This document shows, in pieces, positions 9,339 to 48,200 of a stretch of DNA of 64,000 nucleotides. Position 1 is the stretch's first letter; each line of letters begins with the position of its first letter. Made by a program: the position numbers and the translations under genes. The notes beneath the pieces were generated by a model that was given only the letters and a program-made list of their open reading frames with translations, was not told the origin of the DNA and did not search any database. The stretch is from a plasmid: the sequence record OW849299.1, one strand, 5' to 3'.

Positions 9339-9406
9339 GCTGTTTAATCGTTTTAGGTGAAGTTCTGGGCAGTATTGGTGTAAAGAATGTTGGTAATGAC
9401 TCCAAC

Positions 9407-9910
9407 TTATTGATAGTGTTTTATGTTCAGATAATGCCCGATGACTTTGTCATGCAGCTCCACCGATTTTGAGAACGACAGCGACTTCCGTCCCAGCCGT
9501 GCCAGGTGCTGCCTCAGATTCAGGTTATGCCGCTCAATTCGCTGCGTATATCGCTTGCTGATTACGTGCAGCTTTCCCTTCAGGCGGGATTCATACAGCG
9601 GCCAGCCATCCGTCATCCATATCACCACGTCAAAGGGTGACAGCAGGCTCATAAGACGCCCCAGCGTCGCCATAGTGCGTTCACCGAATACGTGCGCAAC
9701 AACCGTCTTCCGGAGCCTGTCATACGCGTAAAACAGCCAGCGCTGGCGCGATTTAGCCCCGACGTATCCCCACTGTTCGTCCATTTCCGCGCAGACGATG
9801 ACGTCACTGCCCGGCTGTATGCGCGAGGTTACCGACTGCGGCCTGAGTTTTTTAAATGGCGGAAAATCGTGTTGAGGCCAACGCCCATAATGCGGGCGGT
9901 TGCCCGGCAT
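9407..9910 (-). CDS. insB: IS1 InsB (made as an InsAB fusion by frameshift).
   Basis: 167-aa ORF, recognised as IS1 InsB. Confidence 0.9.
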
Positions 9911-26375: not shown

Positions 26376-26939
26376 GTGAAAAAATATGTGCTGTTAACCC
26401 TGACCCTCATCGCCGGCGCCGTGGCAGCAAACCCGGTAACAGCGGCCGGCAATATTGCCGGCGATGTCCAGGCGCAAGCTGCGACTGAAGTGAAAACCGG
26501 GTTTTCACCCGGCGGGACCGCATTAAATCTGGTTCTGGATTCAATCGACCACGCGCAGCATGAGATTCTGGTTGCCGCGTACAGCCTGACCAGTCGTCCT
26601 GTTGCCGGCGCGTTGCGTGCCGCAAAAAAACGGGGCGTATCGGTGGTGGTGGTGGCCGATCGCAAAGCGAACGACAACCGGTACACCGAAGTGAACTTTC
26701 TGGCCAATAACCGCGTGGCGGTGCGGATCAACGATAACTACGAGGCCATGCATGATAAATTCATGGTCTTTGACCGCCGCGCCGTATTGACCGGCTCGTT
26801 TAACTTCAGCGCCAGCGCAGACAGTCGTAATGCGGAAAATGTGGTGCTGATCAGCGGCGCGCCTGCAGTAACTGAAGCCTACGTGAACGAGTTTTCCCGT
26901 TTATGGGACGAAGGAAAGGACGTGGCTCCACGGTACTGA
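26376..26939 (+). CDS. nuc: Phospholipase-D-family periplasmic endonuclease (Nuc-like).
   Basis: Signal peptide, and HxK motif context HDKFMVFD...GSFNFS. Confidence 0.8.
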   Translation: MKKYVLLTLTLIAGAVAANPVTAAGNIAGDVQAQAATEVKTGFSPGGTALNLVLDSIDHAQHEILVAAYSLTSRPVAGALRAAKKRGVSVVVVADRKANDNRYTEVNFLANNRVAVRINDNYEAMHDKFMVFDRRAVLTGSFNFSASADSRNAENVVLISGAPAVTEAYVNEFSRLWDEGKDVAPRY

Positions 26940-26948
26940 CCTACAGCA

Positions 26949-26976
26949 GCGGCAGAAACTCTGCCGCCTGATTTTT
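26949..26976 (+). terminator. Terminator after nuc.
   Basis: gcggcag-aaact-ctgccgc followed by ctgattttt. Confidence 0.5.
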
Positions 26977-26979
26977 AAC

Positions 26980-27056
26980 TTGATTTATATGGCTCATTCG
27001 TCGTATTATCAAGGCTCATTTTTCGGTAGCGCCCCGACTGGCGAAGGAGTAAAACC
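26980..27056 (+). promoter_or_regulatory. CUP-like promoter/5'UTR cassette, copy A (degenerate). It drives the 168-aa ORF and the tandem-HTH regulator.
   Basis: TTGATTtatATGGCTCATTcGtCGTATtAT ... cggtagcgccccgactggcgaaggagt + 6 nt + ATG. Confidence 0.55.
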
Positions 27057-27563
27057 ATGCAATCATTCCCCCTGTTCGTTTCCCGTGTCGTTCCTGTGAT
27101 CACCCTGAGCCATTGTCTGCGGCAGCGGCGCTGGTCCCTGCACAACACGCCATGCCAGATTGACCTGAGATCAGGTTGTCACCTGCGCTCACAGCCTTTC
27201 GGCACGCTATCCAGACGGGAAATAAGCGACCGGCCACCGGCTATGCCCCGCGGTTACTGGTTCAGGCAATGCAGCCGGGATGTCATGTTTACGGGGCGCA
27301 TCGATCAGGCAGATCCTATGAAACAGGTCTATTACAACGAAGGCTGGAGCGGTCCGAACAAGTATACGTTTGAAGTTTATCAGCTGGAGAACGGGAGTTA
27401 CCGGGCGCTGGCCCGCAAATGGAATGGCAAAATCAACAAGGTGCAGCAGGAAACGCAGTACCTGTCTGACACGCGGGAGGGGCTGAAGCACCAGGACTAT
27501 CCCCGCACGCGCCAGGTGAAAATTTTTCTGAATTCAGACTTCTGGGAGAAGGGTAATGATTAA
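27057..27563 (+). CDS. Hypothetical protein. The start is positioned by the RBS cassette, but the N-terminal 85 aa have odd composition. An alternative start is ATG 27318, giving an 82-aa product.
   Basis: ATG lies 7 nt after the aggagt of the cassette. The 3' end overlaps the start of the next gene. Confidence 0.35.
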   Translation: MQSFPLFVSRVVPVITLSHCLRQRRWSLHNTPCQIDLRSGCHLRSQPFGTLSRREISDRPPAMPRGYWFRQCSRDVMFTGRIDQADPMKQVYYNEGWSGPNKYTFEVYQLENGSYRALARKWNGKINKVQQETQYLSDTREGLKHQDYPRTRQVKIFLNSDFWEKGND

Positions 27564-28035
27564 GATGGTTAGCGTCGTTCCGCAGCCGGAAACAGTGAAG
27601 ACGCTCCGGGAAAAAATGGGCATGACTGAAACCGCATTAGGGGCTGTCATGGGGTACGAACTGCGCGCCTGGCAGCGTAAGGAAGCTATCAGCGACGATC
27701 TCAGCCAGTACAACAAGACCAGTCTTCGCCCAGGCGAATATAACATGCTGATGCTGATCGCCGGCGTGCATCCTGATTACCGCCTGAACAGGGCATTCAG
27801 TCCTGATGATATGGTCAAAGATCCCGCCACGGCCGAAGACGTTCGCCGCCTGCGTCTGGCGCTGGGGCTGAAGCACGCTGAAATTGCAGCGCTGTTTGGC
27901 TATAAACCGGCGTCATGGCAGACCAAAGAAAAGGCTGCTCAGCGCGGCGTAAAGCTCAAGACCGGGGAATTCAATTTCCTGTTACTTCTGGCCGGTGAGC
28001 ATCCGTCACTGCAGCTGGTTGAGAAGGCGAAATAA
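27556..28035 (+). CDS. Tandem-HTH DNA-binding regulator (KorC-like). Candidate repressor of the repeated leading-region promoters.
   Basis: Two homologous ~70-aa halves, LREKMGMTETALGAVMGYELRAWQRKE and LRLALGLKHAEIAALFGYKPASWQTKE, each followed by ...LLIAG(V/E)HP. Confidence 0.6.
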   Translation: MIKMVSVVPQPETVKTLREKMGMTETALGAVMGYELRAWQRKEAISDDLSQYNKTSLRPGEYNMLMLIAGVHPDYRLNRAFSPDDMVKDPATAEDVRRLRLALGLKHAEIAALFGYKPASWQTKEKAAQRGVKLKTGEFNFLLLLAGEHPSLQLVEKAK

Positions 28036-28063: not shown

Positions 28064-28474
28064 ATGATCACCACACGCCGAATGTTAATGCTGTATGCCT
28101 GCCTTGTGCCCGTAGCCCTGACAGGGTGTGATCTGGCTGATTATTTCCCGAATGTGCCACAGCCCGTGCCCGTGATTTCGCCCGGCTATCAGGTTGATAT
28201 CGATGGCCACCCGGTCCGAATATCAGGATTTGATGACTGTCCGCGGGAAAAAGATGAAGCCCGGCACGCAGCTGCACAAGATGAGAAAGGCTGCATTGTG
28301 CTGTCTGCAGAGCGTTCCGAGGTGAAGGTCAGACTGTATCAGCCAGCCGGCGCCGTCACCGAAACCTGGCGGATCATCCGGGAAAAAGACGCTCGCCAGA
28401 ACGATATTATTCGCCTGCAGCGCCCGAACGGTGCGCTTGTGATGCAAAATTTACAGGGGAAAGAGTCTCCTTAA
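28064..28474 (+). CDS. Lipoprotein (136 aa).
   Basis: Lipobox VALTGC. Its 3' end (NLQGKESP*) is part of a motif repeated upstream of several CUP-like units. Confidence 0.5.
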   Translation: MITTRRMLMLYACLVPVALTGCDLADYFPNVPQPVPVISPGYQVDIDGHPVRISGFDDCPREKDEARHAAAQDEKGCIVLSAERSEVKVRLYQPAGAVTETWRIIREKDARQNDIIRLQRPNGALVMQNLQGKESP

Positions 28475-28497: not shown

Positions 28498-28591
28498 TTG
28501 ATTTATATGGCTCATTAGACGTATAATAATTACATCGAAAGGCAATCCGGTCTTTCGACGGTAGCGCCCCGACCGGCGCAGGAGTCACCTT
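28498..28591 (+). promoter_or_regulatory. CUP-like promoter/5'UTR cassette, copy B (complete).
   Basis: -35 TTGATT at 28498, invariant ATGGCTCATTAGACG spacer, -10 TATAAT at 28522, UTR hairpin tcgaaaggcaatccggtctttcga, cggtagcgccccgaccggcgcaggagt, ATG at 28592. Confidence 0.7.
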
Positions 28592-28876: not shown

Positions 28877-29239
28877 ATGACCATGCAATCAGAACTTGTT
28901 TTTACTGATCCTATGCTCAACGTCGTTATTGCTGAAGTTAAGCGTTTTAATTGCCCGCTTCTTTTTGTCAAAGATCATGGCGTGTATGTGATGGCGGCGA
29001 AAGGTGAGAAAAACAGTAATGGGATGCACAATGTCTGTTACGCCAATGGTTTTAATCCGGATACAACGGATTTTGACGAGCTCTGGGACCGGATGCGTGA
29101 TGCCTGTGGCGGAGATGATTTTTGCGAATCCCTGGAGCTCGATCCGAGGTCGATTGAACTTCTCAGCCGTACCAAACCCTGCCTGAAAATTATGCTTTCA
29201 GAGACGGAACTGGAAGTTATTGCAGGGGGACAGAAATAG
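28877..29239 (+). CDS. Hypothetical leading-region protein (120 aa).
   Basis: Second gene of the operon (RBS agggag). Terminator at 29246-29272: aaagcccg-ttaaat-cgggcttttttat. Confidence 0.5.
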   Translation: MTMQSELVFTDPMLNVVIAEVKRFNCPLLFVKDHGVYVMAAKGEKNSNGMHNVCYANGFNPDTTDFDELWDRMRDACGGDDFCESLELDPRSIELLSRTKPCLKIMLSETELEVIAGGQK

Positions 29240-29360
29240 ACCATAAAAGCCCGTTAAATCGGGCTTTTTTATATTTCACTGTATTTACATCTAGGACAAA
29301 ATGTCCTATTATATATTTGTGGCCGGGCATGGTGCTCAGGTCCCCTAACGAGGGAAATAT

Positions 29361-29854: not shown

Positions 29855-30121
29855 ATGGGCAATAAATATACCGTGCCGCTTAACGTGGGCGCGATCCGCG
29901 AAAGCTGTTTCCGTCCCGCTGATAAATGGACCCCGCCGACGGGGGATGAACTCCGCTATCTGCTGGAAAATGTGCTCAACCTGAGTCAGGAGGGACTGGC
30001 GCGACATGTCGGCGTGAACGGCAGAACGGTGCGCCGCTGGGTGAACGGAGAAAGTGACATCGCGTATTCCGTCTGGTGCGTCCTTTGCATCGATGCCGGC
30101 TTACCGCCGATCTGGAAATAG
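29855..30121 (+). CDS. HTH-containing small regulator (89 aa) co-transcribed with radC.
   Basis: LSQEGLARHVGVNGRTVRRWVNGE is a helix-turn-helix. GGAGG Shine-Dalgarno upstream of ATG 29855. Confidence 0.5.
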   Translation: MGNKYTVPLNVGAIRESCFRPADKWTPPTGDELRYLLENVLNLSQEGLARHVGVNGRTVRRWVNGESDIAYSVWCVLCIDAGLPPIWK

Positions 30122-30184: not shown

Positions 30185-30467
30185 ATGAATACTGATAACT
30201 ATTTTTTCAGAGTCCCGGCCACACGCGGAATACAGGGCGGCATAGAACAATACATGCTGACGGTTCCTATGGTCGTGTTACGTCGTATTCTTGCAATGGA
30301 CAATGATGGCGATGTTATGGATCGCAGCCAGCGAGAAGCGAACAAAACGCGGGCCAAAAAAATACGGAATTATGTTGCCGGCGCAACATCAAAACGAGCT
30401 CCCTATATTTTGCCGTCAATTACCGGAAATATTGATAGTCATGTTGAATTCCTTCCCAGCGAACTCT
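30185..30467 (+). pseudogene. 5' part of a DGQHR-domain (DndB-like) protein gene, interrupted by IS1.
   Basis: The N-terminal 94 aa run into the IS1 end. The downstream fragment carries the LFDGQHRALG motif. Confidence 0.6.
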
Positions 30468-31235
30468 GGTAATGACTCCAACTTATTGATAGTGTTTTAT
30501 GTTCAGATAATGCCCGATGACTTTGTCATGCAGCTCCACCGATTTTGAGAACGACAGCGACTTCCGTCCCAGCCGTGCCAGGTGCTGCCTCAGATTCAGG
30601 TTATGCCGCTCAATTCGCTGCGTATATCGCTTGCTGATTACGTGCAGCTTTCCCTTCAGGCGGGATTCATACAGCGGCCAGCCATCCGTCATCCATATCA
30701 CCACGTCAAAGGGTGACAGCAGGCTCATAAGACGCCCCAGCGTCGCCATAGTGCGTTCACCGAATACGTGCGCAACAACCGTCTTCCGGAGCCTGTCATA
30801 CGCGTAAAACAGCCAGCGCTGGCGCGATTTAGCCCCGACGTATCCCCACTGTTCGTCCATTTCCGCGCAGACGATGACGTCACTGCCCGGCTGTATGCGC
30901 GAGGTTACCGACTGCGGCCTGAGTTTTTTAAATGGCGGAAAATCGTGTTGAGGCCAACGCCCATAATGCGGGCGGTTGCCCGGCATCCAACGCCATTCAT
31001 GGCCATATCAATGATTTTCTGGTGCGTACCGGGTTGAGAAGCGGTGTAAGTGAACTGCAGTTGCCATGTTTTACGGCAGTGAGAGCAGAGATAGCGCTGA
31101 TGTCCGGCGGTGCTTTTGCCGTTACGCACCACCCCGTCAGTAGCTGAACAGGAGGGACAGCTGATAGAAACAGAAGCCACTGGAGCACCTCAAAAACACC
31201 ATCATACACTAAATCAGTAAGTTGGCAGCATCACC
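30468..31235 (-). mobile_element. IS1 (768 bp), second copy, in the same orientation as the first. No flanking direct repeat.
   Basis: Ends identical to the first copy. Flanks gcgaactct and gggattctt do not match. insA at 30905-31180 and insB at 30483-30986. Confidence 0.95.
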
Positions 31236-32737: not shown

Positions 32738-32832
32738 TTGATTGTTATGGCTCATTAGACGTATAATGATCACATCGAAAGGCAATAAGGCTTTTCGCGG
32801 TAGCGCCCCGACTGGCGCAGGAGTAACAAATT
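32738..32832 (+). promoter_or_regulatory. CUP-like promoter/5'UTR cassette, copy C (complete).
   Basis: TTGATTgttATGGCTCATTAGACGTATAAT + hairpin + cggtagcgccccgactggcgcaggagt + ATG at 32833. Confidence 0.7.
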
Positions 32833-33012: not shown

Positions 33013-33084
33013 TCATTGATGGGCTGGCATTGCCAGCCCTGTTCACCCCTTACGGTAGCGCCCCGCATGGCGCAGGAGTCTGAA
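33013..33084 (+). promoter_or_regulatory. Internal cassette, copy D: a perfect hairpin plus the UTR/RBS module, with no promoter.
   Basis: gggctggca-t-tgccagccc then cggtagcgccccgcatggcgcaggagt then ATG at 33085. Confidence 0.6.
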
Positions 33085-34030: not shown

Positions 34031-34134
34031 TATTTATTGCTTGATTAATATGGCTCATTAGACGTATAATAATCACATCGAAAGGCAATGAGGCTTTTCG
34101 CGGTAGCGCCCCGACTGGCGCAGGAGTAATAAAT
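34031..34134 (+). promoter_or_regulatory. CUP-like promoter/5'UTR cassette, copy E (complete).
   Basis: TTGATTaatATGGCTCATTAGACGTATAAT + tcgaaaggcaatgaggcttttcg + cggtagcgccccgactggcgcaggagt + ATG at 34135. Confidence 0.7.
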
Positions 34135-34833: not shown

Positions 34834-34913
34834 TTGCATATATGGCTCATTAGACGTATAATGTTTTTACTGATTCAAATCAGTACCTTCCTAAACAGCC
34901 TTACAGGTGCATT
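34834..34913 (+). promoter_or_regulatory. CUP-like promoter, copy F: promoter core only, with a different UTR.
   Basis: TTGCATatATGGCTCATTAGACGTATAAT. UTR carries the ctgattcaaatcag hairpin. Confidence 0.6.
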
Positions 34914-35027
34914 ATGACCTCTTCTGAAATCCTCCATAACCTCCCTCAGATTATCACGGCCGTGGCCGCCCTCATTACAGCCATTACCGGGCTGATTAAA
35001 GTCATGAAGGATAAAGGTAAGGACTGA
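34914..35027 (+). CDS. 37-aa hydrophobic peptide with a basic C-terminus (Ldr/type-I-toxin-like). Candidate small membrane toxin or regulator.
   Basis: MTSSEILHNLPQIITAVAALITAITGLIKVMKDKGKD. Resembles the LdrD core LAAPILAGIITAAIVSWW. Confidence 0.35.
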   Translation: MTSSEILHNLPQIITAVAALITAITGLIKVMKDKGKD

Positions 35028-35098
35028 ACCGCCGCAGGGGGCGACAGCCCCCTGCATCCCTAACCGGCAGCGCCCCGACTGGCGCAGGAGTAAAAAAA
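35028..35098 (+). promoter_or_regulatory. Internal cassette, copy G: a perfect hairpin plus the UTR/RBS module.
   Basis: gcagggggc-gaca-gccccctgc then cggcagcgccccgactggcgcaggagt then GTG at 35099. Confidence 0.6.
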
Positions 35099-35335: not shown

Positions 35336-35419
35336 TATGGCTCATTAGACGTATAATTATCACATCGAAAGGCATCCGGTCTTTCGCGGCAGCGCCCCGA
35401 CTGGCGCAGGAGTTTTACA
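35328..35419 (+). promoter_or_regulatory. CUP-like promoter/5'UTR cassette, copy H (complete).
   Basis: TTGATTaatATGGCTCATTAGACGTATAAT + tcgaaaggcatccggtctttcg + cggcagcgccccgactggcgcaggagt + ATG at 35420. Confidence 0.7.
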
Positions 35420-35830: not shown

Positions 35831-35891
35831 TTCACGCAGTAACGCAGCGAACTTTCACGGTAGCGCCCCGACTGGCGCAGGAGGAAAAAAC
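35831..35891 (+). promoter_or_regulatory. Internal UTR/RBS cassette, copy I.
   Basis: cacggtagcgccccgactggcgcaggaggaaaaaac then ATG at 35892. Confidence 0.6.
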
Positions 35892-36302: not shown

Positions 36303-36397
36303 TTGATTAATATGGCTCATTAGACGTATAATAATCACATCGAAAGGCAATCCGGTCTTTCGACGGTAGCGCCCCGACTGGCGCAGGAGTACAGAAA
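36303..36397 (+). promoter_or_regulatory. CUP-like promoter/5'UTR cassette, copy J (complete).
   Basis: TTGATTaatATGGCTCATTAGACGTATAAT + tcgaaaggcaatccggtctttcga + cggtagcgccccgactggcgcaggagt + ATG at 36398. Confidence 0.7.
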
Positions 36398-37166: not shown

Positions 37167-37230
37167 ATGTCTGGCATCATTTGATGTTCATATTTGAACA
37201 AAATTAAATAAAAAAAATACGTCTGATGAG

Positions 37231-37320
37231 TTGATAAAATGGCTCATTAGACGTATAATTATTACATCGAAAGGCAGTTGAGTCTTTCGCGGTAGCGCCC
37301 CGACTGGCGAAGGAGTTGAA
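37231..37320 (+). promoter_or_regulatory. CUP-like promoter/5'UTR cassette, copy K (complete, 1 nt shorter in the spacer).
   Basis: TTGATAaaATGGCTCATTAGACGTATAAT + tcgaaaggcagttgagtctttcg + cggtagcgccccgactggcgaaggagt + ATG at 37321. Confidence 0.7.
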
Positions 37321-38454: not shown

Positions 38455-38547
38455 TTGCCTGCAATGGCTCATTAGACGTATAATAATCGTGAAGTTTAAA
38501 AGTGGATATTGATTAAAACGCTCTGTAAATAACGTGGAGAGAATATT
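38455..38547 (+). promoter_or_regulatory. CUP-like promoter, copy L: promoter core only, with a different UTR.
   Basis: cTTGCCtgcaATGGCTCATTAGACGTATAAT, then a distinct 60-nt leader, then ATG at 38548. Confidence 0.6.
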
Positions 38548-39951: not shown

Positions 39952-40135
39952 ATGCCCTCCCAATAATGTCAAAATCGCCATGCCGAACCGGAGAAAATCG
40001 ACCCAGGCTATTCGGGTGATTTTACATGATGCCCGGCACGATTCAATTGCTCTGCCTGCCAGGCCCTTCGCTGCTGGCTTTCAAACCTCGCCGATGGTAG
40101 AATTCAATGAGGTATTTAAGTACGGGACAAGATGT

Positions 40136-45247: not shown

Positions 45248-48200
45248 ATGGCGAAACCTGAAATTGCAACTGAAAGAACCCGTCTGAGTATTCCCTTTGA
45301 CGATCGCCAACGTGCAATACGTGCGGCCGGCAAACTGGCTGATGGCAGTAATGCTCTGGACTACGTGAAGGAAGAAAAGGTGTGGTATGCACAGCCGGGG
45401 GCCAACCTGAGCCGGCTGAAAGAGTGGATTTTTGACCCCAATAAAGTGATCGAAGAACCGCCCCTGGATATTCAGGCCATTGAAGATGAATTTACGGCGT
45501 GGCTTGAAGAGCGCGGTGCCATTATCAAAGACCCCATAGAGTTCGATGGCCAGAAGCATTATGTCGATACCGTGGACGGTAAAGCTGGTTCAAGAAAGGG
45601 GGTGTATGCCGCCTTTCTGGATGGCCGACCTGCAGGGTGGTACAGGGACTATAAGAACGGTGGTGAAATTCAGAAATGGGTATCTACCGGCGCAGCCCCT
45701 AACCCTGAACAAATGGCCATGCTCCGTGCTGATGCTGCGGCAAGGCGTGAACAAAGAGCTGCAGCGCAAGCGGATAAGTTTGATCAGACCGCTAACCGGT
45801 TGATGGAAGAATATAACCGGCTTCCGGATGCCACGGGAGATCTGGCATACCTGAAAAACAAACAGGTCATTGCCGCTAACGGCCTTAAAGCTGATGAGCG
45901 GGGCAACGTTGTGATCCCTCTGTTTAATGCTGATGGCGAGTTCAGGACCCTTGAGCGCATCTGGTCCGACGGTAGTAAACACCTTGAAAAAGACGGCCAG
46001 GCATGGGGGAGTTTTTTCGTTGTGGGTGGTCAACTGAAGGATGGTGACAACCTGCTTTATGCCGAGGGATATGCGACAGCAGCCAGTATCAGCGAAGCCA
46101 TCAATCAGCCTGTGATCATGACGGTTAATGCCGGCAACATGGTGGAAGTTGCTGGCCGCCTGAAAGACACCTTTCCAAACAGCACTCATTACTTCCTTGC
46201 TGACAATGACATTTATAAAGACGAGAACGTTGGGCTAGAAAAAGCGACAGAAGCTGCAGAGCTGACTGCCGGCCATGTTCTGGTCCCTGCCTTTAGCAAC
46301 CCGAAAGAAGGGCTTACTGACTACAACGATTTGCATGTCTCTGAAGGGCTGGAGCAAGTCAGATTGCAGGTAGAAGGAGCCATTAATCAAATGAACAGGG
46401 TAGACACTATGCCGACTGATAACCCGAACATTACTGACGTTAATCACAGCTCGACTGACAGCGCTGCCGTTGCAGATCCTGAAAAAGCCGCGCCGGTGGC
46501 CAGCGCCCCTGCAGCTGCCGAACCGGAGGAAACCGCGCCGGTGGCCAGCGCCCCTGCAGCTGATGAACCGGTGGAAGCCGCGCAGGTGGCCAGCGCCCCT
46601 GCAGCTGATGAACCGGTGGAAGTCGCGCCGGTGGCCAGCGCCCCTGCAGCTGATGAACCGGAGGAAGTCGCGCCGGTGGCCAGCGCCCCTGCAGCTGCTG
46701 AACCGGAGGAAACCGCGCCGGTGGCCAGCGCCCCTGCAGCTGCTGAACCGGAGGAAGTCGCGCCGGTGGCCAGCGCCCCTGCAGCTGCTGAACCGGAGGA
46801 AACCGCGCCGGTGGCCAGCGCCCCTGCAGCTGCTGAACCGGAGGAAACCGCGCCGGTGGCCAGCGCCCCTGCAGCTGCCGAACCGGAGGAAGCTGTGCCG
46901 GTGTCCAGCACCCCTGCAGCTGCTGAACCGGAATACACCGCACCAACAGATCGAGACGGCGATGATGAAGAGAGTAATAGCGCCAGTGATCTTGAGGCGT
47001 ATGCCGCTATGATGGCCTTTGGCGGTGAAACAACTGACTCCGCTCAGCAAAAGCCTGAAAGGATAGCGCCCAGCGAATCTGTAGCTAATACCGCCCCGGC
47101 TGAAAATGAAACCGAGGAGAAGAAAAAAACAAACGAAGAACTGGAAAACGGCATACGCTGGGCAACCAACGATAATGCAGAAACGCCCCCAAAAGAACGT
47201 ATAGACCTGGAAGGGTTAATTGCCCGGTTTGGGTACAGAGCAGAGAAAGACTATACGGCGTATACGCTTGATGGACAGGATGCGTTTTACGATTACGGCT
47301 CACATCTGCGTATGGCTACCCCTGAAGCCAGCCAGAGTGACGAGATGATCCTGGCGGCCGTTCTAACCGCGGATAAGCAACATCATCGTGGTATTGAAAT
47401 CACCGGCAGTGACGAATTTAAAGAGCGAGTGTTTAACCTTATCAGTGAATACAACATTGAGGTGAAACTGACTAACCCAGAACAAAGGGTTAAATTGCTC
47501 GAACTCAAAAAAGCAAATGAAACAGCAAAAGAAACGGCAAAAGAAAATGTTGCTGATTCAAATGCGAATAAGCAGGAAGGGGCAAACGAAAAGACAAATT
47601 CATCAGTTCAGCAGAATGGAATGCGCTGGGAAGAATCGGCCTCTGTGCAGCCGAAGAAGCAGAATGCATCTGATACTCAAAAGGAAGATAAAGCTGCAGG
47701 TGAACCCTGGGAGAAAGGCGTTATCGTCGCGCATGGACGTGCTAAGTATGAGTGGAAAGAAGATGAATCCATGAACTACTTTGTCACCCTCAAAAATGAA
47801 CATGGAGAGAAGACACTCTGGGGGAAAGACCTTGAGAGAGCGGTTAAAGATGCTGGTGTAGACACAGAACGTCTTGTTACAGTCAGAAAGCTGGGATTTG
47901 TGGATGTTGAGGTGAATGCACCTGTCCGTGATGAAAGCAACAAGATCGTTCGTTATGAAACTATCCAGACCAAACGTAATGAGTGGGAAGTAAAGCCTGT
48001 ATACCCACAGCCAACAGCAGGGAATGAACAGGCCTATAAGCCTTCTGAACTGGTTCCGTATGATGCTGCAACCTTCCAGAAGCTCCGCACAACAATTCAG
48101 CAGATTACCGGTGTTGATCTCAGCCGTGAGGCCGTGCCTGAAAAAGAACTGTACTGGTTCTTGCCTAATGGTAAGCCAGCTCCAGAAAGCATGACAAAGC

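What the first reader, a model, noticed from the sequence alone, without database searches (positions are those of the whole stretch)
27556..28035. Tandem-HTH (KorC-like) protein as candidate master repressor, autoregulated from cassette A
The protein is an internal duplication of an XRE-like HTH unit, so one polypeptide carries two DNA-binding domains. That fits recognition of the dyad-symmetric promoter core. Its gene sits in the first, degenerate cassette unit (26980) and overlaps the stop of the upstream 27057-27563 ORF, which suggests autoregulation and translational coupling. A plasmid-wide repressor of this kind would give zygotic induction of the leading genes on entry into a naive cell.
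Basis: inference. Interest (0 to 1): 0.6.

Follow-up and report, generated by a model that had tools for sequence, protein, structure and literature searches.

The report
Tandem-HTH repressor of pOXA-48 leading genes

Summary
ORF 27556-28035 encodes a 159-aa protein made of two XRE-type HTH units (34% identical, E 3e-14; AF2 pLDDT 92, pTM 0.89). It overlaps the upstream ORF's stop by 8 nt and lies behind a degenerate copy of a repeated promoter cassette.

The window is a pOXA-48-type IncL plasmid. The gene is the published orf20/DNDJGHEP_0014, which is essential for plasmid maintenance and has no known targets. It is not KorC-like: pOXA-48 has a separate korC (29858-30121) with its own unique operator (29292-29308), and the two proteins share only generic HTH similarity (hhalign probability 5%).

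The repressor idea is well supported by comparison, but no binding was tested. A 21-nt core (ATGGCTCATTAGACGTATAAT, spacer plus -10) is invariant in 8 promoters between 28.5 and 38.5 kb, with a 3-mismatch copy at the gene's own promoter.

Single-unit homologues in IncX, IncI2 and other plasmids lie among homologous cassettes whose spacers carry plasmid-specific, near-perfect 9-2-9 palindromes. The three tandem proteins go with asymmetric operators. Identical recognition helices go with identical operators. An Arg in the helix tracks G at half-site position 5.

Functional analogues are IncN ArdK/CUP and phage Aca repressors. I rate it a new variant of a known kind, interest about 0.6.

The parts
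26949..26967 (+). Terminator-like hairpin after the PLD-family nuclease gene nuc; it isolates cassette A as its own transcription unit
   Evidence: 8-bp stem, 6 G-C pairs, T-rich tail
26980..27009 (+). Promoter PA of the orf19-orf20(-orf21) operon: -35 TTGATT, 18-nt spacer, weakened -10 TATTAT. It holds the degenerate operator (core 26989-27009, ATGGCTCATTCGTCGTATTAT, 3 mismatches).
   Evidence: The own-promoter copy is also the divergent one in L018 (ATAGTTCATTAGTCGTATTAT) and L002 (…GTCGTATCAT).
27019..27056 (+). Shortened 5'UTR module: hairpin GCGCC-ccgact-GGCGA, then SD GGAG, ahead of the orf19 ATG
27057..27563 (+). orf19 (DNDJGHEP_0013). Only its C-terminal 81 aa (27318-27563) are conserved in relatives. 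It is dispensable according to the literature.
   Evidence: PMC12365149
27556..28035 (+). orf20 (DNDJGHEP_0014): tandem-HTH protein. N unit is about aa 9-79, with recognition helix L36-K42 (LRAWQRK). C unit is about aa 89-158, with helix P118-K124 (PASWQTK).
28064..28474 (+). orf21: last gene of the unit, with a lipoprotein-like N-terminus (…LTGC); function unknown
   Evidence: no family hits
28507..28527 (+). Operator/promoter core B (perfect 21-mer). Drives an 87-aa ORF and a DUF3085 protein.
32747..32767 (+). Core C. Drives a 59-aa ORF and a DUF4942 protein.
34050..34070 (+). Core D. Drives a 112-aa ORF; an Hha-family gene lies downstream.
34842..34862 (+). Core E (-35 TTGCAT, different UTR). 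Drives a 37-aa hydrophobic ORF and a 78-aa ORF.
35337..35357 (+). Core F. Drives a DUF1380 protein and a 101-aa ORF.
36312..36332 (+). Core G. Drives a KlcA/ArdB-type antirestriction protein and a 94-aa ORF.
37239..37259 (+). Core H. Drives a 73-aa ORF, SSB and a DUF5983 protein. An extra canonical half-site, ATACGTCTG, lies at 37217-37225.
38464..38484 (+). Core I (-35 TTGCCT, different UTR). Drives a 178-aa ORF next to oriT/nikA.

Best explanation
Orf20 is a single-chain 'pseudo-dimer' repressor. Its two diverged XRE-type HTH units each read one half of an asymmetric 20-bp operator, ATATGGCTC-AT-TAGACGTAT. This operator fills the -35/-10 spacer and runs into the -10 hexamer of eight strong sigma-70 promoters in the pOXA-48 leading region. 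The N unit probably reads the -10-proximal half, TAGACGTAT.

Binding would block RNA polymerase and keep about 20 establishment and anti-defence genes silent in an established host. These include KlcA/ArdB, SSB, and DUF4942, DUF1380, DUF3085 and DUF5983 proteins.

The repressor is translated, probably coupled to orf19, from a ninth cassette. That cassette has a weaker operator and a weaker -10 (TATTAT), which gives leaky negative autoregulation.

In a naive recipient no Orf20 is present, so the promoters fire until the repressor accumulates. Without orf20 they stay on. That would be toxic and would explain the published essentiality.

Shown here: the protein architecture, the invariance and position of the sites, and operator/helix co-variation across plasmids. 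Inferred: binding, repression, which unit reads which half-site, the timing, and which regulon member is toxic.
For: (1) The 21-nt core is identical in 8 of 8 promoters, while the columns on either side drop at once to 4-7 of 8. A sigma-70 spacer does not need a fixed sequence, so this points to a protein-binding site. The cassettes score 10-11 of 12 as promoters, and three of them (A, E, I) have a terminator-like hairpin just upstream.

(2) A 45%-identical tandem homologue in pUCLAOXA232-3 (L002) lies in the same gene order. That plasmid has five homologous cassettes with a different invariant spacer, GGTATGTCTTTTGTCGTATAAT. An 85%-identical homologue (L018) with near-identical recognition helices keeps the pOXA-48 core.

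(3) Each half of Orf20 is 38-45% identical to free-standing 71-83-aa proteins in IncX1, IncX3, IncI2 and other plasmids. In those plasmids the same cassette architecture carries near-perfect 9-2-9 palindromes in the same register:
- ATACATCTA-AA-TAGATGTAT
- ATACCTGCA-AA-TGCAGGTAT
- TTACCATCA-TA-TGATGGTAT
- ATAGGTCAG-TT-CTGACCTAT
- ATACGTCTA-AA-TAGACGTAT
. All three tandem proteins (pOXA-48, L002, L009) go with asymmetric operators.

(4) Identical recognition helices go with identical operators in separate plasmids: IncX3 and L014; IncI2 and L006; L006-2 and L022; and, with one base changed, IncX1 and L013. Arg at the L-R-x-W position goes with G at half-site position 5 in 4 of 4 single-unit operator types. 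Ser or Asn there goes with A or C in 3 of 3.

(5) The nearest single-unit relative of the N unit, P0020 (helix VGLRTWQKKE), has the operator half-site ATACGTCTA. That is identical to the pOXA-48 right half. The same holds for the tandem protein P0008 and IncI2, at 8 of 9 positions.

(6) The best solved relatives are small dimeric autorepressors: Aca10 (profile E 8e-8, TM 0.84), Aca3, Aca1, MqsA-C, HipB and C.Kpn2I.

(7) Literature: orf19-orf20 form an operon; orf19 is dispensable; orf20 can be deleted only with a copy in trans; transconjugants lacking it elongate and stop dividing; silencing it causes plasmid loss. No targets are reported (PMC12365149 and PMC12361523).

(8) KorC has its own unique operator at 29292-29308, so the cassette core has no other assigned regulator.
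Against: - No binding or expression experiment exists for Orf20 and the cassettes.
- The comparative sample is small: about 7 single-unit operator types and 3 tandem ones. Part of the helix/operator match could come from co-inheritance within related backbones.
- The left half-site of the tandem operators does not resemble any single-unit half-site, so I cannot model how the C unit reads DNA.
- In L009 the tandem gene lies behind a relB/parE operon and has no operator of its own, so autoregulation is not universal.
- In Pantoea stewartii p4 (L019) I found no operator near the gene.
- The two-gene module also occurs alone in a P2-like prophage (L016). The ancestral role may therefore be local autoregulation only.
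Confidence: 0.75

Rival explanations
1. Orf20 is only a local autoregulator or antitoxin of its own small module (orf19-orf20-orf21). It would resemble MqsA/HigA/Xre antitoxins, with essentiality coming from an unrestrained toxin. The invariant cassette core would then be bound by some other factor.
For: - Weak, sub-threshold hits to antitoxin HTH families: PF20432 24.1 bits against a cut-off of 25.8, and TIGR03830 25.8 against 61.8.
- Automated names such as 'MqsA family antitoxin' on some homologues.
- The two-gene module occurs alone, with its own palindromic operator, in a P2-like prophage.
- The essentiality phenotype would fit loss of an antitoxin.
Against: - Deleting orf19 has no phenotype. 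Transposon insertions in orf19 are depleted rather than tolerated, which is the opposite of what a toxin gene would show (PMC12365149).
- No toxin or defence family matches orf19, orf21 or the upstream ORFs.
- MqsA's zinc-binding N-domain is absent.
- This reading does not explain why operators of the same type as the autoregulatory one recur at 2-8 other promoters in each plasmid and change together with the recognition helix.
Confidence: 0.12
2. The cassette core is controlled by a different regulator (KorC, the plasmid H-NS/Hha pair, or a host protein). Orf20 would act elsewhere, for example in partition or replication, given its position next to parM/parR/nuc.
For: - KorC and the H-NS-like gene are also needed for pOXA-48 stability (PMC12361523).
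- orf20 lies directly downstream of the partition genes.
Against: - The KorC-type palindrome TAGGACAAAATGTCCTA occurs only once, in korC's own promoter.
- The 24-kb syntenic region of L002 keeps the cassettes and the Orf20 homologue but has no KorC homologue.
- H-NS and Hha do not need a 21-nt exact sequence.
- Across IncX, IncI2 and IncL/M backbones, the Orf20-family HTH gene was the regulator seen next to the cassettes in every locus examined.
Confidence: 0.06
3. The identical cores reflect recent duplication or gene conversion of a strong promoter and have no dedicated regulator. The link with Orf20 would be a coincidence.
For: The repeats lie within 12 kb, all in one orientation, which would favour homogenisation.
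Against: - Identity stops sharply at the core edges while the -35, the flanks and the UTR vary. Gene conversion would homogenise the flanks too.
- The same sharply bounded pattern, with different core sequences, recurs in unrelated backbones.
Confidence: 0.05

Closest known systems
ArdK and the CUP (conserved upstream) elements of IncN plasmids pKM101/R46 (Delver & Belogurov 1997, as cited in PMC6289460)
   Same: One plasmid-encoded repressor binds a short conserved sequence repeated in promoters upstream of leading-region genes (ardA, ardB and others) and in its own promoter (CUPA). EMSA shows the binding (PMC6289460).
   Different: There is no sequence relationship: tblastn of Orf20 and of each half against R46, which carries ardK and ardR, finds nothing. 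The operator sequence differs, and Orf20 is a tandem two-HTH chain.
KorC of IncP (RK2/RP4) and IncU (RA3) plasmids, and pOXA-48's own KorC
   Same: A small HTH repressor whose operator lies between -35 and -10 of plasmid backbone promoters, and whose loss is deleterious.
   Different: Only generic HTH similarity (hhalign probability 5.4%, 19% identity over 37 columns). KorC is a single unit of about 87 aa. Its palindrome TAGGACAAAATGTCCTA occurs once, at 29292-29308. pOXA-48 encodes KorC separately at 29858-30121.
Anti-CRISPR-associated (Aca) repressors of phages and mobile elements: Aca10 (7xi5), Aca3, Aca1, Aca2
   Same: These are the closest solved relatives by sequence profile and fold (E 8e-8; TM 0.84 to the target). 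They are small XRE-type HTH dimers with palindromic DNA targets (for example PDB 7c0g, Aca1 bound to a 14-bp palindrome). From my own knowledge, they restrain strong promoters of anti-defence genes.
   Different: Aca proteins are single-unit homodimers in phage or MGE acr operons. Orf20 is a fused two-unit chain on a conjugative plasmid that would control many promoters.
HTH domains of type II antitoxins (MqsA C-terminal domain, HigA, HipB, Xre-RES)
   Same: The same XRE-type fold and weak family-level hits. Both are autoregulated small operons with overlapping genes.
   Different: No toxin partner is identifiable, orf19 is dispensable, scores fall below the family cut-offs, and the operators are spread over many promoters.
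ArdK regulon of IncW plasmid R388 and its transcriptional overshoot on entering a new host (from my own knowledge of Fernandez-Lopez et al. 2014; not checked here)
   Same: The concept matches: negative-feedback repressors keep leading and maintenance genes low at steady state and allow a burst in a naive recipient.
   Different: No sequence similarity to anything in R388. The operator architecture differs.

Membership tests
KorC (IncP/IncU global repressor) | Sequence homology to KorC | tested here: not met
   tblastn of Orf20 against the window finds no match at korC (29858-30118), and the reverse search finds none either, at E<=10. hhalign of the family profile against pOXA-48 KorC gives probability 5.4%.
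KorC (IncP/IncU global repressor) | Recognises the OC-type palindrome (TAGGGCATAATGCCCTA-like) | tested here: not met
   The only OC-like site is 29292-29308, in the orf24-korC promoter. The cassettes lack it.
KorC (IncP/IncU global repressor) | Single HTH unit of about 85 aa | tested here: not met
   Orf20 is 159 aa with two units.
XRE/Cro-C1-type HTH DNA-binding domain | HTH fold and family-level sequence signal | tested here: met
   Pfam hits are just below the cut-offs (PF20432 24.1 against 25.8; PF13560 23.6 against 27). The profile search hits Aca10 at E 8e-8 and MqsA-C at 6e-5. The AF2 units superpose on Aca10 with TM 0.84.
Tandem (single-chain) HTH architecture | Two homologous HTH units in one polypeptide | tested here: met
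   The halves are 34% identical, E 3e-14. AF2 pTM is 0.89. Each half is closer to free-standing single-unit proteins than to the other half.
Type II antitoxin (MqsA / Xre-RES) | Scores above the family cut-off, and an adjacent toxin gene | tested here: not met
   TIGR03830 scores 25.8 against a cut-off of 61.8, and NF049845 13.5 against 90. No toxin family matches the neighbours. Deleting orf19 gives no phenotype (PMC12365149).
IncN ArdK | Sequence homology to ArdK or ArdR | tested here: not met
   No tblastn hit in R46, which carries ardK at 30843-31184 and ardR at 26893-27297.
Leading-region repressor with repeated operators (functional class) | The same short site recurs in several leading-region promoters and in the regulator's own promoter | tested here: met
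   8 perfect sites plus 1 degenerate site, all between nuc and oriT/nikA.
Leading-region repressor with repeated operators (functional class) | The protein binds the site and represses transcription | not testable with these tools
   Only comparative co-variation supports it.

The most novel reading that the evidence does not exclude
Orf20 and its single-unit relatives form a widespread, so far uncharacterised family of Aca-like repressors. They would gate a modular 'promoter + operator + structured 5'UTR' cassette system driving establishment and anti-defence genes in IncL/M, IncX, IncI2 and related plasmids. The IncL/M form would be a natural single-chain heterodimer, made by fusing two diverged paralogues, that reads an asymmetric operator. 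Because losing it is lethal to the plasmid, it would be a specific weak point of pOXA-48.
Probability: 0.55. Interest if true: 0.75.

Novelty: new variant of a known kind. Interest (0 to 1): 0.62.

Why it matters
pOXA-48 is the main vehicle of OXA-48 carbapenem resistance. Two 2025 studies found orf20 essential for keeping the plasmid but could not say why. The reading here gives a concrete, testable mechanism: loss of repression at eight defined promoters. It also gives the exact operator to use in binding and reporter assays.

It links pOXA-48 to a family of small repressors and promoter cassettes shared with IncX3 (NDM), IncX4 and IncI2 (mcr-1) plasmids, so a single mechanism may control establishment genes in several clinically important plasmid groups.

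The paired single-unit/palindrome and tandem/asymmetric-operator cases are a natural experiment in how repressor specificity evolves. A repressor whose loss makes the plasmid non-viable is a plausible anti-plasmid target.

Tried and rejected
- KorC-likeness: tested and rejected.
- Homology to IncN ArdK/ArdR or to any R388 regulator: none found.
- Rfam search of 26.8-39 kb for a known RNA family in the cassette 5'UTR: nothing relevant, only a sub-threshold rimP-leader hit at 29208.
- RNAalifold on cross-plasmid UTRs: MAFFT put the hairpins out of register, so the consensus was uninformative. I read the stems directly instead.
- Homology between orf19's conserved C-terminal part and the ~85-aa ORFs upstream of single-unit HTH genes: only 12-17% identity, so not supported.
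- PADLOC, PHROGs, Pfam and NCBIfam on orf19, orf21 and the upstream ORFs: no toxin or defence family.
- The published type I toxin dqlB as the toxic regulon member: rejected, because it lies between repA and trbC, outside the cassette region.
- P0024 and P0106 (140-146 aa) as further tandem proteins: rejected. One is a read-through across a cassette and the other is a single unit with a C-terminal extension.
- A broad genome-collection scan for more loci: the first alignment had no usable conserved stretch. The second returned only 4 loci, so a statistically large operator/helix survey was not possible.
- P0007 (70% identical): its 3-kb contig showed no cassette.
Full report
**What the window is**

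The 1.6 kb around the finding is 100% identical to many pOXA-48-type IncL plasmids, at the same coordinates in NZ_CP083064.1. In RefSeq the ORF 27556-28035 is WP_004187375.1, 'hypothetical protein'. It is flanked upstream by parM, a partition adaptor gene, a PLD-family nuclease and a 168-aa hypothetical ORF, and downstream by a 136-aa hypothetical ORF.

Two 2025 papers name it. It is orf20 in Baffert et al. (PMC12365149) and DNDJGHEP_0014 in Calvo-Villamañán et al. (PMC12361523). Their findings:
- It is predicted to be XRE-like and forms an operon with orf19.
- orf19 can be deleted without effect.
- orf20 can be deleted only if supplied in trans.
- Recipients that acquire a plasmid lacking orf20 elongate, stop dividing and lose the plasmid.
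- CRISPRi silencing causes plasmid loss.

Neither paper reports a DNA target, and neither mentions the repeated promoters. A full-text search for pOXA-48 plus orf20 finds only these two studies.

**Checking the observation**

- The ORF is real.
- Its two halves align at 34% identity over 74 residues, E 3e-14.
- Pfam and NCBIfam give only sub-threshold XRE and antitoxin-HTH hits.
- AlphaFold2, run on a 118-sequence alignment, gives a confident model with mean pLDDT 92.2 and pTM 0.89. It has two equivalent units, each of four helices and a short strand.
- The recognition helices are L36-K42 (LRAWQRK) and P118-K124 (PASWQTK).
- The start codon overlaps the orf19 stop by 8 nt, and a GGAG lies 7 nt upstream.
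- The overlap is conserved in relatives: 4 nt in L002, 8 nt in L018, and 4-14 nt in single-unit modules.

**The cassettes**

The 21-mer ATGGCTCATTAGACGTATAAT occurs eight times without a mismatch, at 28507, 32747, 34050, 34842, 35337, 36312, 37239 and 38464. It occurs once with three mismatches at 26989, upstream of orf19-orf20. All copies are on the + strand, and none is expected by chance.

The 21-mer consists of the last 15 nt of an 18-nt spacer plus the TATAAT -10. The -35 is TTGATT, TTGATA, TTGCAT or TTGCCT. Conservation is 8 of 8 across the core and falls to 4-7 of 8 in the adjacent columns.

Six of the eight perfect-core cassettes carry the full conserved 5'UTR ending in a GC hairpin and GGAG, and cassette A a shortened copy. 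Three more copies of that UTR lie inside operons without a promoter.

The genes behind the cassettes are typical leading-region cargo: DUF3085, DUF4942, DUF1380, KlcA/ArdB antirestriction, SSB and DUF5983. nikA starts at 39980, so the cassettes lie on the leading side of oriT. The only other matches to the first 18 nt of the core, at up to 5 mismatches, are two 5-mismatch minus-strand hits (one is the 37217 half-site listed under 'Noticed in passing'), no more than the ~2 per strand seen in shuffled sequence.

**Not KorC**

pOXA-48's korC is a different gene (29858-30121), in an operon with a RadC-like gene. Its promoter holds the palindrome TAGGACAAAATGTCCTA at 29292-29308, which is unique in the window. 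This agrees with Baffert et al.

Orf20 and KorC do not find each other by tblastn at E<=10. A profile-sequence comparison gives 5.4% probability. Orf20 also has no match in R46 (which carries ArdK and ArdR) or in R388.

**Comparative evidence that the protein reads the core**

A tblastn search of PLSDB finds 3,729 plasmids. About 2,900 of them match at under 60% identity. In most of the sampled rows both halves of Orf20 map onto one ORF of about 70-80 aa. A profile search returns 145 such proteins.

I examined loci from the following sources:
- IncX1 (L003)
- IncX3 (L004)
- IncI2 (L005)
- an IncFIA mosaic with two paralogues (L006)
- IncX-like plasmids of Yersinia, Xenorhabdus, Pantoea and Morganella (L012-L015, L021)
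- a metagenome contig (L022)
- a P2-like prophage (L016)
- three tandem-protein lineages: pOXA-48 and L018; L002; L009

In nearly all of them the HTH gene is the last gene of an operon, and homologous cassettes lie beside it. Each cassette has a -35, a 17-18-nt spacer, a TATAAT-like -10, a 'CATCGAAAGG…' UTR, a GC hairpin and GGAG.

In a fixed register, a 20-nt window ending on the first three bases of the -10, the single-unit plasmids carry near-perfect 9-2-9 palindromes:

| Source | Operator |
|---|---|
| IncI2, L006 type 1 | ATACATCTA-AA-TAGATGTAT |
| IncX1, L011, L013 | ATACCTGCA-AA-TGCAGGTAT |
| IncX3, L014 | TTACCATCA-TA-TGATGGTAT |
| L006 type 2, L022 | ATAGGTCAG-TT-CTGACCTAT |
| L012 | ATACGTCTA-AA-TAGACGTAT |
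| L016 | CTACGTCCA-AA-TGGACGTAG |
| L015, L021 | TGCGCCCA…/ATACGACC… types |

The three tandem lineages carry invariant but asymmetric cores:
- pOXA-48: ATATGGCTC-AT-TAGACGTAT, with 6 of 9 arm matches.
- L002: AGGTATGTC-TT-TTGTCGTAT.
- L009: …ATATCAAACGATGTAT.

Identical recognition helices go with identical operators in separate plasmids:
- FTLSAWQAKE in IncX3 and L014.
- VGLSTWQKKE in IncI2 and L006.
- MSPRTWRRKE in L006 and L022.
- YQLNSWQ(M/Q)KE (one residue apart) in IncX1 and L013, whose operators differ at one base.

Arg in the L-R-x-W position goes with G at half-site position 5 in all four single-unit types that have it. Ser or Asn there goes with A or C in the other three. Arginine-guanine contact is a classical direct-readout pair; I state this from general knowledge.

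The right half of the pOXA-48 operator (TAGACGTAT) is identical to the half-site of L012. L012's protein, P0020, is the closest single-unit relative of the Orf20 N unit. The tandem P0008 shows the same pattern with IncI2, at 8 of 9 positions. I therefore assign the N unit to the -10-proximal half. This is an inference.

The pairwise scores also show how the tandem form arose. The N units of the tandem proteins group with the IncI2/P0020 clade. The C units group with each other and with the IncX1 clade. The tandem protein therefore looks like a fusion of two already diverged paralogues, not a recent internal duplication.

**The gene's own promoter**

Cassette A has a degenerate core and a TATTAT -10. 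The corresponding cassette is also the odd one out in L018 (ATAGTTCATTAGTCGTATTAT) and in L002 (…GTCGTATCAT). A weaker operator on a weaker promoter fits leaky negative autoregulation; that is my interpretation. In L009 the tandem gene lies behind a relB/parE operon and has no operator of its own. Autoregulation is therefore common but not universal.

**Mechanism and rivals**

The best-supported reading is a single-chain pseudo-dimer repressor. It occupies the spacer and -10 of eight leading-region promoters and, more weakly, its own. The promoters would burst into activity in a naive recipient, and unchecked expression without orf20 would be toxic. I give this a confidence of 0.75.

The rivals, each argued in full in its own entry above:
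- An antitoxin-type local regulator (confidence 0.12).
- Another regulator acting on the core (confidence 0.06).
- Homogenisation of the repeats with no regulator (confidence 0.05).

**Comparison with known systems**

- IncN ArdK/CUP is the closest functional analogue. ArdK binds conserved upstream elements, including one in its own promoter (PMC6289460).
- IncP KorC and IncW ArdK are further analogues.
- By sequence and fold, the nearest solved proteins are the anti-CRISPR-associated repressors Aca10, Aca3 and Aca1, then MqsA-C, HipB and a restriction-modification controller protein. Only one Orf20 unit aligns to any of them (TM normalised to the query is at most 0.34).

**Verdict**

The essentiality of the gene is already published. 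The proposed target and mechanism, the family-wide operator logic and the single-chain heterodimer form did not turn up in the literature I could search. I rate it a new variant of a known kind, with interest 0.62.

**Noticed in passing**

- A structured 5'UTR module whose hairpin stems co-vary between plasmids.
- Poor conservation of the N-terminal half of orf19.
- An extra canonical half-site upstream of the ssb cassette.
- A 37-aa hydrophobic ORF behind cassette E.
- Long structured repeats upstream of the IncI2 cassettes.

Noticed in passing
window 28528-28591, 32768-32831, 34071-34134, 35358-35419, 36333-36397, 37260-37320; promoter-less copies around 33054-33078, 35066-35090 and 35859-35883: Each cassette carries a conserved 5'UTR with two hairpins directly before the SD (…CGAAAGG-loop-CTTTCG… then GCGCC-ccgact-GGCGC-a-GGAG). 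The second stem changes in a compensatory way between plasmids: TCGCC/GGCGA in L002, GTCC/GGAC in IncI2, GCCGC/GCGGC in L006/L022, GCCC/GGGC in IncX. The module also occurs without a promoter in front of internal genes. This suggests an RNA-level role such as translation, stability or a protein-binding site. There is no Rfam match.
   Followed up: partly
window 27057-27563 (orf19); L018 9561-10008; L002 11456-11974: Only the C-terminal 81 aa of orf19 (from the ATG at 27318) are conserved (42% to L002). In L018 the N-terminal part is a separate, overlapping ORF. The annotated 168-aa product may therefore be two ORFs, or a leader plus a small protein.
   Followed up: partly
window 37217-37225: An extra canonical half-site, ATACGTCTG, lies just upstream of the -35 of the ssb-operon cassette. 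With the core's TAGACGTAT (37249-37257) it forms an inverted pair 23 nt apart. It may be an auxiliary operator.
   Followed up: no
window 34914-35027: A 37-aa hydrophobic ORF (MTSSEILHNLPQIITAVAALITAITGLIKVMKDKGKD) is the first gene behind cassette E. A small membrane peptide of this sort is a candidate for the toxicity seen when repression is lost.
   Followed up: no
window 29284-29312 and 29858-30121: The true korC and its promoter. The palindrome TAGGACAAAATGTCCTA lies between TTTACA and TATTAT and is unique in the window. It defines a regulatory unit separate from the cassettes.
   Followed up: yes
L016 7440-8219 (P2-like prophage, Phytobacter): The two-gene module (81-aa ORF plus 72-aa HTH) occurs alone in a P2-like prophage, between dinI and the replication gene. 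It has its own palindromic operator, CTACGTCCAAATGGACGTAG. The module therefore moves between phages and plasmids.
   Followed up: partly
L005 3421-3800, 4337-4530, 6373-6750; L006 4080-4350, 6515-6850, 8510-8850, 9854-10200: In IncI2-type plasmids each cassette is preceded by a repeated, GC-rich segment of about 100-330 bp (repeat coordinates). It was not folded or compared with ssDNA promoters or priming signals. pOXA-48 cassettes lack it.
   Followed up: no
window 46374-47003; 9391-9690 and 30467-30766: There is a tandem array of at least ten 45-nt units at 46.4-47.0 kb. There are also two identical 300-nt repeats 21 kb apart, probably IS1 copies bracketing part of the backbone including this locus.
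   Followed up: no
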